Positions 36,145-48,734 of a stretch of DNA of 64,000 bases are shown in pieces. Numbering within the stretch: the first letter of the stretch is position 1; every line of letters begins with the position of its first letter. The translations under genes were made by a program, and so were the position numbers. The DNA is from a phage, in the sequence record PZ445428.1. One strand, 5' to 3'. The notes under the pieces were generated by a model that saw only the letters and a list, made by a program, of their open reading frames with translations, made no database searches and was not told the origin of the DNA.

Positions 36145-36219
36145 CGGGGTGTAGTCTAAGGGATAGGCAGGAGTCTTCTAAATTCCTTTATGCAGGTTCG
36201 AATCCTGTCACCTCGGCCA
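36145..36219 (+). tRNA. tRNA-Arg (anticodon TCT)
   Basis: Hand-folded cloverleaf: acceptor CGGGGTG/CACCTCG, anticodon loop CTTCTAA, T-arm GCAGG-TTCGAAT-CCTGT, encoded CCA. Confidence 0.8.
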
Positions 36220-44171: not shown

Positions 44172-44246
44172 GCACCTTTAGCTGAGATGGATTAGCGCTT
44201 GCCTGAAGAGCTTGAGAGGTTGGATCGTTACCAACGGGGTGCACCA
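44172..44246 (+). tRNA. tRNA-Phe (GAA)
   Basis: Acceptor GCACCTT/GGGGTGC, D-arm GCTG...TAGC, loop CTGAAGA, CCA. Confidence 0.6.
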
Positions 44247-45248: not shown

Positions 45249-45324
45249 ACATCCATAGCTCAATGGTTAGAGCTACCGCCTCTTAAGCGGAGGGTTCTAG
45301 GTTCAAGTCCTAGTGGGTGTACCA
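45249..45324 (+). tRNA. tRNA-Lys (CTT)
   Basis: Acceptor ACATCCA/TGGGTGT, D-arm GCTC...GAGC, loop CTCTTAA, T-arm CTAGG-TTCAAGT-CCTAG, CCA. Confidence 0.65.
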
Positions 45325-45329
45325 AATAC

Positions 45330-45668
45330 TGGGGTCTTAGCTAATCGGTTAAGCGTCATGGATAGCGGTGAATTCCGGCCTATGAAGGGAGTAACACGTA
45401 GTCTCCCAGACTCCACCAAATTTCAGTGCAGAACACGGAGCTAGCAATTCGGAAGTGCTGACGCGCGATAAGCTGCCTATGTACTTGCAAAGCGGACGTG
45501 TCCTAGACTCGGACTCTTGCACTGAAACCAATTAAACATTCTAGCGTGGTGGAGAGGGGACACCAGCTTGCCGAGGGTAGAAGCTCGTTCGATTCGAGTG
45601 AAAGAATGGTTCTCGTAAATCCGCACAAGTGATAGTAGGTTCAAGTCCTGCCTAGATTGACTTATTAT
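45330..45668 (+). ncRNA. cluster of tRNA-like / structured RNA elements, non-canonical
   Basis: Acceptor-like stems with encoded CCA (GGGGTCT...AGACTCCACCA; TTCAGTG...CACTGAAACCA) and T-arm-like motifs, but no canonical cloverleaf by hand folding. Confidence 0.35.
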
Positions 45669-45742
45669 GCGTCCATAGTTAAAAGGTATAATTTCTGGTT
45701 GCCAACCAGATGTTGAGAGTTCGATTCTCTCTGGCCGCACCA
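45669..45742 (+). tRNA. tRNA-Gly (GCC)
   Basis: Anticodon arm TCTGG-TTGCCAA-CCAGA, T-arm GAGAG-TTCGATT-CTCTC, CCA. Confidence 0.75.
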
Positions 45743-46050
45743 AATTTAGGTTTATGCTTCCTAGAGAACGTACTCCTAAATAAACAAGGCGATGAGTTTC
45801 CGGCCGGTTCTAGTCGCTGAAAATCCTCCCGACCAGGTAGGTGTAGGTAAACGAAAGTTTACTTATTAAGTAAGTCCGACACATCGGCGGGTGTGTTCTA
45901 GTATTTAAAGAAGGTCTCGCAAACTTTCTCGCTAGCATGAGTTCATAGCTCGGTGACTTACCTAATAAGTAAATTTATTAAAAATGTAATTGCTATTTAG
46001 CTTAATTCTCTGTATAATATATTTTATAAAGTGATGAGAAGGAAAGCAAA

Positions 46051-47077: not shown

Positions 47078-47331
47078 TTTCTTGTTATAATATTTATATA
47101 AATTGATGGGGAGAAATCCTCATCAAAGTTCACTAAGGTATTAGCTCGACCTAGGACTGGCTGCCACCAAGCACGATCCCTACGACTCGGGAGAAGTTCT
47201 AGATTAGTCCACTAGATTCAGCGGCAACTGAATAGTGTATCGGGTTTGTGAAGAGCGGGTATCCAAGCCTGGCTAATGGCACTGGGTATTACGCACACCG
47301 AGCTAATAGCCTTAGTAAACTTGAAGAATTT

Positions 47332-47412: not shown

Positions 47413-47488
47413 GGGGTCATAGGTTATTTGGTTAAACTTACTGCCTTGCAAGCAGTAGAACTCAGTTCAATTCTGAGTGACTCCACCA
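47413..47488 (+). tRNA. tRNA with TGC anticodon (second Ala-type)
   Basis: Acceptor GGGGTCA/TGACTCC, anticodon arm ACTGC-CTTGCAA-GCAGT, T-arm CTCAG-TTCAATT-CTGAG, CCA. Confidence 0.6.
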
Positions 47489-48001: not shown

Positions 48002-48094
48002 GGAAGAGCAAATCGACTTGGTGACGAAAACCGCTTGGAAAGTGGCTGACTTGTGAAAGCAGGCTTGAGAGTTCGAATCTCTCTTCTTCCGCCA
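48002..48094 (+). tRNA. class II tRNA, probably Ser (GGA)
   Basis: Acceptor GGAAGAG/TTCTTCC, candidate loop TTGGAAA, long variable arm, T-arm GAGAG-TTCGAAT-CTCTC, CCA; anticodon arm is imperfect. Confidence 0.5.
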
Positions 48095-48101
48095 AACAAT
48101 T

Positions 48102-48191
48102 GGAAGTACGGGCGTAGTGGTATGCAACTAGTCTTGAAAACTAGCCCGCTGTAGCGATATGGTGATGGTTCGACTCCATGTGCTTCCGCCA
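48102..48191 (+). tRNA. tRNA-Ser (TGA)
   Basis: Acceptor GGAAGTA/TGCTTCC, anticodon arm CTAGT-CTTGAAA-ACTAG, long variable arm, CCA. Confidence 0.7.
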
Positions 48192-48196
48192 AATCT

Positions 48197-48327
48197 TGGA
48201 ATATGCCGGAATTGGTAGACGGGACTGCCGAATAGGTTTACTAGGAACATCCACTCCTAGAAATATACCTTAAAAGCGGTTGAGTTAAATGGTCTAACTC
48301 GTGAAGGTTCAAGTCCTTCTATTCCTT
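48197..48327 (+). ncRNA. tRNA-like element, about 131 nt, non-canonical
   Basis: Perfect T-arm GAAGG-TTCAAGT-CCTTC and acceptor-like TGGAATA/TATTCCT, but no CCA and no canonical anticodon arm. Confidence 0.35.
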
Positions 48328-48434
48328 GATACATCAATGGCTCAAAGAGTAACGGTGCACCTTTCTAGAGAATTTCCTGGGCGAGAATCCAGGTGTAATC
48401 AACTAGTCGTTAGTGTGATGAGTTTCGGAGAGCC

Positions 48435-48581
48435 GCCACAATTGAAGATCATTGTCTGTTTGAGTCTACCATTTAGGGTCGTTACTTGTAGCGCCTATCT
48501 GCTAGGTCTAATCACTAGGTAAAGGCATGCAAGCTTCTAGTGTAGAGAGTTCGCTACTCCTCGATGGTTTTCAATTGTGGC
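48435..48581 (+). ncRNA. candidate structured RNA closed by a 12-bp long-range stem
   Basis: GCCACAATTGAA (48435-48446) pairs perfectly with TTCAATTGTGGC (48570-48581); the 3' arm overlaps the tRNA-His 5' end. Confidence 0.3.
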
Positions 48582-48659: not shown

Positions 48660-48734
48660 GCGTCCTTATTTCAACGGAAAGAATGTAAAGCTACGAACTT
48701 TACGATCGGGGTTCGATTCCCTGAGGATGCACCA
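48660..48734 (+). tRNA. tRNA-Arg (ACG)
   Basis: Acceptor GCGTCCT/AGGATGC, anticodon arm TAAAG-CTACGAA-CTTTA, T-arm CGGGG-TTCGATT-CCCTG, CCA. Confidence 0.8.

What the first reader, a model, noticed from the sequence alone, without database searches (positions are those of the whole stretch)
45330..45668. tRNA-like elements that do not fold as canonical tRNAs
Between tRNA-Lys(CTT) and tRNA-Gly(GCC) lie about 340 nt with no ORF. They contain 7-bp acceptor-like helices with encoded CCA (GGGGTCT...AGACTCC-A-CCA, about 92 nt; TTCAGTG...CACTGAA-A-CCA, about 115 nt) and T-arm-like motifs, but no standard D or anticodon arms. These may be processed tRNA-like RNAs, mimics or decoys for tRNA-targeting nucleases.
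Basis: seen in the sequence. Interest (0 to 1): 0.55.

Follow-up and report, generated by a model that had tools for sequence, protein, structure and literature searches.

The report
Three tRNA-like RNAs in phage tRNA array
The gap between two tRNA genes of this T5-like phage holds three conserved tRNA-shaped RNA genes that cannot read codons: an alanine-type tRNA mimic, a structured spacer, and a tRNA frame carrying a conserved 55-base module found in many unrelated phages; none has a known function.

Summary
The window is Escherichia phage TrudiGerster (Bas27), a T5-like phage. The helices, the CCA ends, the lack of an ORF and the failure of tRNA finders are all real. The 344 nt hold three separable modules, not two.

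- **E1 (45331-45418):** a four-arm, tRNA-Ala-derived mimic. G1:C72, G2:C71, G3·U70, A73 and CCA are invariant in 10 variants from T5-like and N4-like phages, while the other stem pairs covary. It has no anticodon and an 11-nt non-T loop.
- **E2 (45421-45530):** an RNA closed by a 10-12 bp helix, found only in close T5 relatives. It shows no covariation, and its CCA occurs only in this phage.
- **E3 (45538-45662):** It is the homolog of T5 "RNA2", which the T5 record annotates as a stable RNA of unknown function. It is a canonical tRNA frame whose anticodon loop is replaced by a conserved 55-nt module: a second T-arm, a YGG triloop hairpin and a CGUAAnUCCGCA motif. A covariance model finds about 50 distinct members, mostly in phage tRNA arrays. 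They score 65-118 bits against 43 bits or less for real tRNAs, with strong covariation. The family is not in Rfam.

All three are probably excised like tRNAs. Their function is unknown, and the decoy idea is untested.

The parts
45331..45418 (+). E1: 88-nt tRNA-Ala-derived mimic. Acceptor 45331-45337 / 45408-45414 with G3·U70, then A73 at 45415 and CCA at 45416-45418. D-arm 45340-45354. Long middle arm 45356-45385. T-like arm 45387-45407 with the 11-nt loop UAACACGUAGU.
   Evidence: Sequence. Model R2 scores it 112 bits, and four variants outside the seed score 58-64 bits, against 29 bits or less for tRNAs. 98.6% of cells are paired, 12 pairs change on both sides, and G1:C72, G2:C71 and G3·U70 are present in 10/10. 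The 5' 24 nt resemble the phage's tRNA-Ala(UGC) at 47413-47488.
45421..45530 (+). E2: 110-nt structured RNA closed by a terminal helix, 45421-45431 with 45517-45527, followed by CCA at 45528-45530. A possible internal hairpin is GUCC-7 nt-GGAC.
   Evidence: Fold (z = -1.1). It is 93.9% identical to an unannotated stretch just upstream of RNA2 in T5. There are 14 variants with 16 variable columns and no compensatory pair, and the CCA is found only in the window.
45538..45662 (+). E3: homolog of T5 RNA2, a tRNA frame carrying a payload. Acceptor 45538-45544 / 45652-45658. D-arm 45547-45565. Anticodon stem 45566-45570 / 45626-45630. Variable loop 45631-45634. T-arm 45635-45651. No encoded CCA (tail GACU).
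   Evidence: 88.8% identical to T5s06 over 125 nt. Scores 98.4 bits, E = 5e-22, with model R1. Family covariation is 0.817 against 0.178 in shuffles.
45571..45625 (+). E3 payload: 55 nt in place of the 7-nt anticodon loop. GGGU 45575-45578 is proposed to pair with AUCC 45619-45622. Inner T-arm 45583-45599 with loop UUCGAUU. Mini-hairpin with a UGG triloop at 45607-45609. Invariant CGUAAAUCCGCA at 45614-45625.
   Evidence: GGG, G49, GG and the T-loop are invariant in 50/50 representatives. The inner hairpin has 4/5 pairs with double-sided changes. For the GGGY/RUCC helix, C pairs with G in 18/18 cases and U pairs with A or U. The second pair of the mini-hairpin is UA 19, AU 15, CG 2. The payload is more conserved than the frame.
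45249..45324 (+). Flanking tRNA-Lys(CUU), 6 nt upstream of E1.
   Evidence: ARAGORN and Rfam. Spacers between modules are 2-8 nt and AT-rich, as between real tRNAs.
45669..45742 (+). Flanking tRNA-Gly(GCC), 6 nt downstream of E3.
   Evidence: ARAGORN and Rfam.

Best explanation
The interval encodes three independent non-coding RNA genes embedded head-to-tail in the T5-type polycistronic tRNA operon.

**Shown here:** each is a separately inherited module. E1 and E3 are descended from tRNAs and keep tRNA-type helices under purifying selection, but neither has an anticodon loop, so neither can decode.

**Inferred:**

- Like their tRNA neighbours, they are probably cut out by the host tRNA-maturation enzymes: RNase P at the 5' side of the acceptor-like helix, and endo- and exonucleases at the 3' side. 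They would then accumulate as stable small RNAs, as the T5 record annotates for the E3 homolog RNA2.
- E1 keeps the complete alanine acceptor identity (G1:C72, G2:C71, G3·U70, A73, encoded CCA). It is therefore predicted to be charged by host AlaRS while being useless for decoding.
- E3 uses a generic tRNA body as a scaffold for processing, folding and stability. This parallels the engineered 'tRNA scaffold'. The scaffold displays a conserved 55-nt three-way-junction module, an extra T-arm plus a YGG triloop that could form a second tRNA-like elbow. That module is the selected, functional part and probably binds a protein.
- E2 is a structured spacer or by-product RNA, closed by a long helix, that is confined to close T5 relatives.

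The cellular targets are unknown.
For: - **Modularity.** BLAST against phage genomes splits the interval into three blocks with different distributions.
- **E3 is T5 RNA2.** The T5 record annotates it as 'tRNA-like stable RNA with unknown functions'.
- **E3 family.** The motif occurs in IMG/VR, JGI metagenome and a few GTDB contigs. Model R1 separates 69 members (65-118 bits) from ordinary tRNAs (43 bits or less), with one copy per locus. 93.6% of cells are paired against 60.5% in shuffles, and the covariation score is 0.817 against 0.178. Acceptor (7/7 pairs), D-stem (3/3), anticodon stem (5/5), inner hairpin (4/5) and T-arm (4/5) all show double-sided changes. Members lie in phage tRNA arrays on the same strand as the tRNAs.
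- **The payload, not the frame, is under selection.** Payload identity is 0.66, or 0.49 without the pattern-fixed columns, against 0.42 for the frame and 0.28 for the acceptor. The discriminator is A16/U16/C11/G7 and CCA is encoded in 3/50. The frames resemble no constant isotype, and no insert-free allele was found.
- **E1.** Model R2 gives 58-112 bits for 10 variants, including four outside the seed and two from N4-like or roughly 70-kb Klebsiella phages, against 29 bits or less for tRNAs. The first three acceptor pairs, A73 and CCA are invariant while pairs 4-7 and the middle arm covary. Its acceptor and D-arm resemble the phage's own tRNA-Ala.
- **Packing.** Spacers of 2-8 nt match those between real tRNAs. 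There is no promoter or terminator inside the interval, and the next promoter-like site is downstream at 45990-46018.
Against: - No expression, end-mapping or aminoacylation data exist for this phage. Processing and charging are inferred from sequence and from the T5 annotation.
- E2 has no covariation and weak thermodynamic support (z = -1.1). It could be neutral spacer.
- MFE folding of single sequences does not recover the E3 structure (z = +0.7). The structure rests on comparative data.
- The GGGY/RUCC helix and the elbow-like fold of the payload are only partly supported: U·U occurs in 22/69 members, and the columns fixed by the search pattern cannot vary.
- The Acinetobacter phage 133 copy has a degenerate acceptor stem.
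- Two phage tRNA-Arg genes also carry G3·U70, so that pair alone is not proof of alanine identity.
- No linked protein partner was found.
Confidence: 0.6

Rival explanations
1. Decoys or sponges for host tRNA-targeting defence nucleases or toxins. The mimics would soak up an enzyme that would otherwise cut or modify real tRNAs.
For: They sit in phage tRNA arrays. Such arrays are known to counter tRNA-cleaving defences; for example, a T5 tRNA neutralises PARIS (title and abstract of PMC11464382, listed). E1 and E3 keep tRNA shape determinants. E1 moved between unrelated Klebsiella phage families, as accessory counter-defence genes often do.
Against: The characterised anticodon nucleases recognise the anticodon loop (own knowledge). 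E1 has a variable, non-conserved loop there, and E3 has a 55-nt module. No experiment bears on the idea, and no defence-linked gene is in the neighbourhood. A decoy for an acceptor- or elbow-directed enzyme is not excluded.
Confidence: 0.2
2. Non-functional debris: decaying tRNA pseudogenes and recombination scars in a mosaic tRNA region.
For: T5-like arrays are mosaics with many odd tRNA-like pieces. Examples are the RNA1 homolog, whose 3' half scores 24 bits on the tRNA model, and the Kamaji pseudo-tRNA. E2 shows no compensatory change, and its CCA is unique to this phage. The phage 133 copy of E3 has lost its acceptor stem.
Against: E1 and E3 show strong covariation and invariant non-tRNA motifs across distant phages and environments. 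In E3, the payload is better conserved than the frame. This reading remains credible only for E2, at roughly one chance in three.
Confidence: 0.1
3. E3 is an intron-containing tRNA gene, and the 55-nt insert is spliced out to give a working tRNA.
For: The insert sits exactly where bacterial tRNA introns sit, inside the anticodon loop. Relaxed ARAGORN proposes intron-bearing models. Some GenBank records label part of it as tRNA-Arg(ccg).
Against: It is far too short for a group I intron, and Rfam gives no intron hit at E<=10. No U33 or anticodon context is left at either junction. The insert is the most conserved part, while acceptor stems and discriminators drift freely. No intron-less alleles occur among 583 tRNAs of the same loci. 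The phage already encodes tRNAs for all 20 amino acids.
Confidence: 0.05
4. E1 is a miniature tmRNA-like ribosome-rescue RNA.
For: Its GGGG...CUCCACCA end with G3·U70 matches the ends of tmRNA and tRNA-Ala (tmRNA sequence from own knowledge).
Against: It has no mRNA-like reading frame or pseudoknots. It is only 75-88 nt long and keeps a stable anticodon-like arm. ARAGORN's tmRNA mode finds nothing at default settings.
Confidence: 0.03

Closest known systems
Phage T5 stable RNAs of the tRNA region (RNA2/T5s06; also RNA1, RNAI, RNAIII, RNAIV, RNA2H, RNA3, RNAX in NC_005859)
   Same: E3 is the direct homolog of RNA2: 88.8% identity, at the syntenic position downstream of tRNA-Asp. E2 matches the unannotated 110 nt just upstream of RNA2. 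The window also carries homologs of RNA1, RNAIV, RNA2H and RNAI.
   Different: T5 has no E1; a CDS, T5.067, lies there instead. The T5 record gives no structure or function, does not annotate E2, and does not place RNA2 in a wider family.
Phage T4 species 1 and species 2 RNAs (rnaC, rnaD)
   Same: They are small stable RNAs of unknown function encoded at the end of a phage tRNA cluster. rnaC ends in a T-arm plus an acceptor-like stem.
   Different: BLAST finds no sequence similarity, and the rnaC/rnaD region is absent from the 300 best R1 hits listed. They are a different family.
tRNA-Ala / alanine minihelix / tRNA-like domain of tmRNA
   Same: E1 has G1:C72, G2:C71, G3·U70, A73 and CCA. In the window it also has G4:C69. 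These are the acceptor determinants read by AlaRS (own knowledge of tRNA-Ala identity).
   Different: E1 has no anticodon and no canonical T-loop; its loop is the 11-nt UAACACGUAGU. It has no tmRNA coding part. Charging has not been tested.
Engineered 'tRNA scaffold' for expressing structured RNAs in E. coli (own knowledge: Ponchon and Dardel 2007)
   Same: E3 has the same design: a tRNA body with the anticodon loop replaced by a foreign structured RNA. This allows tRNA-type processing and stability.
   Different: E3 is natural, ancient and widespread. The cargo is one conserved module of unknown function.
Bacterial Y RNA-like YrlA (Rfam RF02553) and other tRNA mimics (plant-virus TLS, mascRNA)
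   Same: They are non-decoding RNAs that copy the T-arm/D-arm elbow. YrlA-type RNAs occur with Ro (TROVE) proteins, which some jumbo phages encode (PMC7824862).
   Different: Rfam gives no match at E<=10. In YrlA the RNA ends lie in the Ro-binding stem, not in an acceptor stem. No Ro gene was found near E3.

Membership tests
Canonical tRNA (Rfam RF00005) | Detected by tRNA models (ARAGORN, Rfam tRNA covariance model) | tested here: not met
   There is no call for 45325-45668 at default settings or with introns allowed. RF00005 gives no hit even at E<=10 on the 344 nt alone.
Canonical tRNA (Rfam RF00005) | 7-nt anticodon loop with U33 and an anticodon on a 5-bp stem | tested here: not met
   In E1 the middle arm is 6-13 bp long, with loops of 4-9 nt that are not conserved. 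In E3 a 51-65 nt insert replaces the loop. E2 has no such arm.
Canonical tRNA (Rfam RF00005) | Acceptor stem of 7 bp, D-arm with G18 and G19, T-arm with a UUCRANY loop | tested here: inconclusive
   E3 meets all three. E1 has the acceptor stem and D-arm but not the T-loop. E2 has only the terminal helix.
T5 RNA2 (T5s06) family | Sequence homology and synteny with T5 RNA2 | tested here: met
   E3 is 88.8% identical over 125 nt and lies downstream of tRNA-Asp in the same operon. Model R1 scores T5 at 110 bits and the window at 98 bits.
T5 RNA2 (T5s06) family | Accumulates as a discrete stable RNA in infected cells | not testable with these tools
   Only the wording of the T5 annotation ('stable RNA') is available. 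No RNA data are available for this phage.
Alanine-accepting tRNA-like RNA (AlaRS substrate) | G3·U70 with A73, G1:C72, G2:C71 and a 3' CCA | tested here: met
   Invariant in 10/10 E1 variants, while pairs 4-7 covary.
Alanine-accepting tRNA-like RNA (AlaRS substrate) | Is actually charged with alanine | not testable with these tools
   This needs an AlaRS assay or acid-urea Northern blots.
tmRNA | tRNA-like domain plus a tag reading frame and pseudoknots | tested here: not met
   ARAGORN's tmRNA mode gives nothing at default settings, and only meaningless permuted calls at -ps70. E1 is 75-88 nt long with no ORF.
tRNA gene with a group I intron | Intron of 200 nt or more with a catalytic core, restoring an anticodon loop on splicing; intron-less alleles exist | tested here: not met
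   The insert is 51-65 nt long. Rfam gives no intron hit. No anticodon context remains. No insert-free allele was found.
T4 rnaC / rnaD | Sequence or model similarity | tested here: not met
   BLAST finds only chance-level hits elsewhere in the window. The rnaC/rnaD region is absent from the 300 best R1 hits listed.
YrlA / Y RNA-like | Match to RF02553; Ro-binding stem | tested here: not met
   No hit in the interval at E<=10. The only YrlA hit, at 17 bits, lies over real tRNAs.

The most novel reading that the evidence does not exclude
E3 would represent a widespread, undescribed class of phage RNAs: a natural 'tRNA scaffold' in which a generic tRNA body delivers a conserved 55-nt module. The module is a second T-arm/GG 'elbow' plus a CGUAAnUCCGCA motif, and it would bind and manipulate a host translation or tRNA-metabolism factor. 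It might act on threonyl-tRNA biology, given the CGUAA motif and the frequent tRNA-Thr neighbours.

E1 would be a non-decoding, alanine-charged tRNA mimic that has been exchanged between T5-like and N4-like phages. Together they would show that phage 'tRNA arrays' also encode dedicated regulatory or counter-defence RNAs.
Probability: 0.35. Interest if true: 0.8.

Novelty: new variant of a known kind. Interest (0 to 1): 0.6.

Why it matters
Phage tRNA arrays are now read mainly as codon-supply or anti-defence tRNA sets. The unexplained 'stable RNAs' of T4 and T5 have been an open question since the 1970s and 1980s.

This analysis turns one of them, T5 RNA2, into a well-defined family. It has about 50 divergent members, a covariation-supported structure and a separable functional module. 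It also defines a second family, E1, with an explicit and cheap biochemical prediction: alanylation without decoding.

Both families are absent from Rfam, and genome records mis-annotate them as tRNA-Arg, tRNA-Lys or hypothetical proteins. Covariance models now exist for finding them. T5 and the BASEL phage Bas27 are tractable systems for deletion, pull-down and charging experiments.

Tried and rejected
**No result:**

- Rfam, at gathering threshold and at E<=10 on 1.1 kb and on the 344 nt alone, finds nothing.
- ARAGORN with relaxed thresholds gives only mutually inconsistent calls: tRNA-Pro with an intron, tRNA-Arg(ccg), tRNA-Ile, and permuted tmRNAs. I rejected these.
- BLAST of the whole interval against 5,426 E. 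coli genomes finds no match, so these RNAs are not copies of host RNAs.
- The literature searches found no paper describing these RNAs beyond the T5 record.

**Little or no support:**

- Single-sequence MFE folding does not help. Z-scores range from -1.6 to +0.7, and the MFE misses the comparative structure of E3.
- The E1 pattern scan in IMG/VR gave ten extra loci, all chance matches without tRNAs.
- The GTDB genome scan for the E3 motif was mostly chance hits. One Pseudobdellovibrionaceae MAG contig and one other are real.
- E3 frames match no constant tRNA isotype.
- No conserved protein neighbour emerged. The largest cluster covers 5 of 44 loci.
- E2 shows no covariation.
- T4 rnaC and rnaD show no similarity to any of the three modules.
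- Reading the E3 junctions as a hidden anticodon (UCCGCA or CGUAA) fails, because U33 and purine-37 are not conserved.

Full report
**Identity of the window and the observation**

The window is 100% identical to Escherichia phage TrudiGerster (Bas27, MZ501108; Demerecviridae, Epseptimavirus), a T5-like phage. The finding lies in its tRNA operon. It sits between tRNA-Lys(CUU) at 45249-45324 and tRNA-Gly(GCC) at 45669-45742, and the GenBank record annotates nothing there.

- GGGGTCT/AGACTCC-A-CCA spans 45331-45418 (88 nt).
- TTCAGTG/CACTGAA-A-CCA spans 45422-45530.
- Two T-loop-like motifs lie further on.
- No credible ORF overlaps the interval. Nothing exceeds 60 aa inside it and no ORF there starts with ATG.
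- ARAGORN, with default settings and with introns allowed, calls nothing. Rfam calls nothing either, not even the tRNA model at E<=10 on the 344 nt alone.
- The only promoter-like site nearby is at 45990-46018. It is downstream and corresponds to T5 P13a. No terminator-like site lies inside the interval.

**Three modules, not two**

BLAST against 50,697 phage records splits the interval into three blocks with different distributions.
- E1 occurs in 105 records, mostly Klebsiella T5-likes.
- E2 plus E3 occur together in most Tequintavirus and Epseptimavirus genomes.
- E3 alone occurs in about 500 records, with weak matches even in T4-like Acinetobacter phages 133 and Acj9.

The modules are packed head-to-tail. 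The spacers are 2-8 nt and AT-rich, the same spacing as between genuine tRNAs in this array.

**Link to what is already annotated in T5**

The T5 reference record lists eight "stable RNAs" in the tRNA region. E3 is the homolog of RNA2 (T5s06), annotated as "tRNA-like stable RNA with unknown functions". It is 88.8% identical over 125 nt at the syntenic position. E2 matches, at 93.9%, the unannotated 110 nt immediately upstream of RNA2 in T5. E1 has no T5 counterpart; a CDS occupies that place. So part of the finding is already on record as a stable RNA, although its structure, family and function were never described there. I found no paper on these RNAs in the held library.

**E3: a tRNA frame with a payload**

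Read by eye and then comparatively, E3 is a near-canonical tRNA body.
- It has a 7-bp acceptor stem and a D-arm with a GG loop.
- It has a 5-bp anticodon stem and a 4-nt variable loop.
- It has a T-arm with the loop UUCAAGU.

The 7-nt anticodon loop is replaced by 55 nt (45571-45625). This insert contains GGGU, a second perfect T-arm (GCUCG-UUCGAUU-CGAGU), a small hairpin with a UGG triloop, and CGUAAAUCCGCA.

A motif scan (GTTCRATTC-N10-30-CGTAANTCCGCA) recovered 47 IMG/VR loci. They include contigs of 164-363 kb. The scan also recovered 95 or more metagenome loci and a few GTDB contigs.

A covariance model built from 37 diverse copies (R1) gave a clean split over all 178 loci.
- 69 family members score 65-118 bits. 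The window scores 98.4 bits, E = 5e-22.
- Ordinary tRNAs reach 43 bits at most, by deleting the insert.
- There is one copy per locus.

On the 69-member alignment, 50 of which are below 90% identity, the structure is strongly supported.
- 93.6% of cells are paired, against 60.5% in shuffles.
- The covariation score is 0.817, against 0.178 in shuffles (0/500 reach it) and 0.15 or less for slid partners.
- Double-sided changes occur in 7/7 acceptor pairs, 3/3 D-stem pairs, 5/5 anticodon-stem pairs, 4/5 inner-hairpin pairs and 4/5 T-arm pairs.

Inside the payload, GGG, a further G, the GG of the triloop and the inner T-loop are invariant in 50/50 representatives. A GGGY/RUCC helix is suggested: C pairs with G in 18/18 cases, and U pairs with A (29) or U (22). 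The triloop hairpin shows UA/AU/CG exchange at its second pair.

Most members lie inside phage tRNA arrays on the tRNA strand.

**What in E3 is under selection**

The payload is more conserved than the frame. Mean pairwise identity is 0.66 for the payload, or 0.49 without the columns fixed by the search pattern. It is 0.42 for the frame and only 0.27-0.28 for the acceptor strands.

Several results show the frame has no fixed identity.
- The discriminator is effectively random (A16, U16, C11, G7), and only 3/50 members encode CCA.
- By contrast, 27 of 29 real tRNAs in this phage encode CCA.
- The frames resemble no constant tRNA isotype, and no insert-free allele exists among 583 tRNAs of the same loci.
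- The phage already has tRNAs for all 20 amino acids.

This argues against an intron-bearing tRNA. It favours a generic tRNA body serving as a carrier for the 55-nt module, the same design as the engineered "tRNA scaffold" (own knowledge). I infer, but have not shown, that the inner T-loop and the invariant GG form a second tRNA-like elbow.

No protein family is consistently linked in 44 diverse loci. Neither E1-E3 nor the payload resembles anything in 5,426 E. coli genomes.

**E1: an alanine-type mimic**

Ten distinct E1 variants were collected. They come from:
- Salmonella and E. coli Epseptimavirus;
- Klebsiella Sugarlandvirus;
- Pectobacterium My1;
- NBSal003 and OSYSP;
- two phages of about 70 kb, including the N4-like Klebsiella phage MY01 (Schitoviridae).

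A model built from six of them (R2) finds the other four at 58-64 bits, against 29 bits or less for tRNAs. It finds no further copies in 0.5 Mb of phage tRNA arrays.

The four-arm structure is supported.
- 98.6% of cells are paired, against 83% in shuffles.
- 12 pairs change on both sides.
- The covariation score is 0.476, against 0.161 in shuffles and 0.11 or less for slid partners.

G1:C72, G2:C71, G3·U70, A73 and CCA are invariant in 10/10, whereas acceptor pairs 4-7 and all six basal pairs of the middle arm covary. The middle arm varies in length and loop, so there is no anticodon. The T-like arm carries an invariant 11-nt loop, UAACACGUAGU, instead of a T-loop.

The acceptor and D-arm closely resemble the phage's own tRNA-Ala(UGC) at 47413-47488 (GGGGTCA/TGACTCC-A-CCA). 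E1 is therefore best read as a tRNA-Ala descendant that kept the AlaRS identity set and lost decoding. Charging by AlaRS is a prediction, not a result. As a caveat, two phage tRNA-Arg genes also have G3·U70.

**E2: the weakest element**

The 10-12 bp terminal helix is real and unlikely by chance, and the sequence is about 94% conserved. But all 14 variants come from close relatives. Their 16 variable columns include no compensatory pair, and the fold is not better than shuffles (z = -1.1). E2 may be a structured spacer or a processing by-product. Neutral debris cannot be excluded.

**Mechanism, rivals and verdict**

The best-supported account is that the three modules are co-transcribed with the tRNAs and excised by the tRNA-maturation machinery. 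This is inferred from the packing, the acceptor-like helices and the T5 annotation.
- E1 would become an alanine-charged, non-decoding RNA.
- E3 would be a scaffolded display of a conserved module that probably binds a protein.

The decoy-for-nucleases idea is possible but unsupported, and it fits poorly with enzymes that read anticodon loops. Covariation excludes debris for E1 and E3. The intron and tmRNA readings fail their defining features.

The entity is partly known, as T5 RNA2. New here are the family-level architecture of E3, its breadth across unrelated phages, and the E1 family with its fixed alanine identity. I rate the finding as a new variant of a known kind, of moderate to high interest.

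Noticed in passing
window 45857-45965: Homolog of T5 'RNAIV' (83% identity over 45875-45926). Its terminal helix GTAAGTC/GACTTAC differs from T5's TGTAGG/CCTACA in a compensatory way. Fold z-score is -2.0.
   Followed up: partly
window 45744-45856: A 113-nt unannotated stretch between tRNA-Gly(GCC) and the RNAIV homolog. It has two predicted hairpins and no ORF.
   Followed up: no
window 48195-48338, 48339-48438 and 47139-47251: Homologs of T5 RNA1 (95.8% identity), RNAI (ends only) and RNA2H (partial). The 3' half of the RNA1 homolog (48259-48327) scores 24 bits on the Rfam tRNA model, below threshold.
   Followed up: partly
window 48002-48094, 48102-48191 and 44172-44243: Two tRNA-Ser genes annotated in GenBank are missed by ARAGORN and reach only 25-38 bits, on the tRNA-Sec model. 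tRNA-Phe at 44172-44243 is found by Rfam but not by ARAGORN.
   Followed up: partly
window 48660-48734 and 36145-36219: By a simple acceptor parse, the phage tRNA-Arg(ACG) and tRNA-Arg(UCU) also carry a G3·U70 pair, which is normally the alanine determinant.
   Followed up: no
L012 501-570 (Enterobacter phage KKP_3711) and several records: GenBank's 'tRNA-Arg(ccg)' is the 5' half of an E3-family RNA. That copy has a perfect acceptor stem GTTCTAG/CTAGAAC followed by G and CCA. Other records place 'hypothetical protein' or 'excisionase' CDSs over E2 and E3.
   Followed up: partly
L013 about 213-300 (Serratia phage Kamaji): Another unannotated tRNA-like element lies between tRNA-Ala and the E3 homolog. 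It has GCACCGT/ATGGTGC-A-CCA and a 7-nt loop ATCGTTA.
   Followed up: no
L020, L041, L052, L057, L097, L123, L129: E3-family genes are often immediately next to tRNA-Thr genes. The invariant CGUAA resembles positions 34-38 of the tRNA-Thr(CGU) anticodon loop. This may reflect ancestry or function, and it is unexplained.
   Followed up: partly
L021 8798-8913; L089 7557-7931: A 116-nt sequence in a 36-tRNA phage array hits the E3 model at only 34 bits and may be another long tRNA-like RNA. Separately, a phage contig carries its own tmRNA with the tag ANDTVYALAA.
   Followed up: no
L192 254-333 (Klebsiella phage MY01, N4-like): The E1 copy sits directly after a terminator-like hairpin and converges on the virion RNA polymerase gene. 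It lies outside any tRNA array, which suggests E1 is a self-contained transferable gene.
   Followed up: partly
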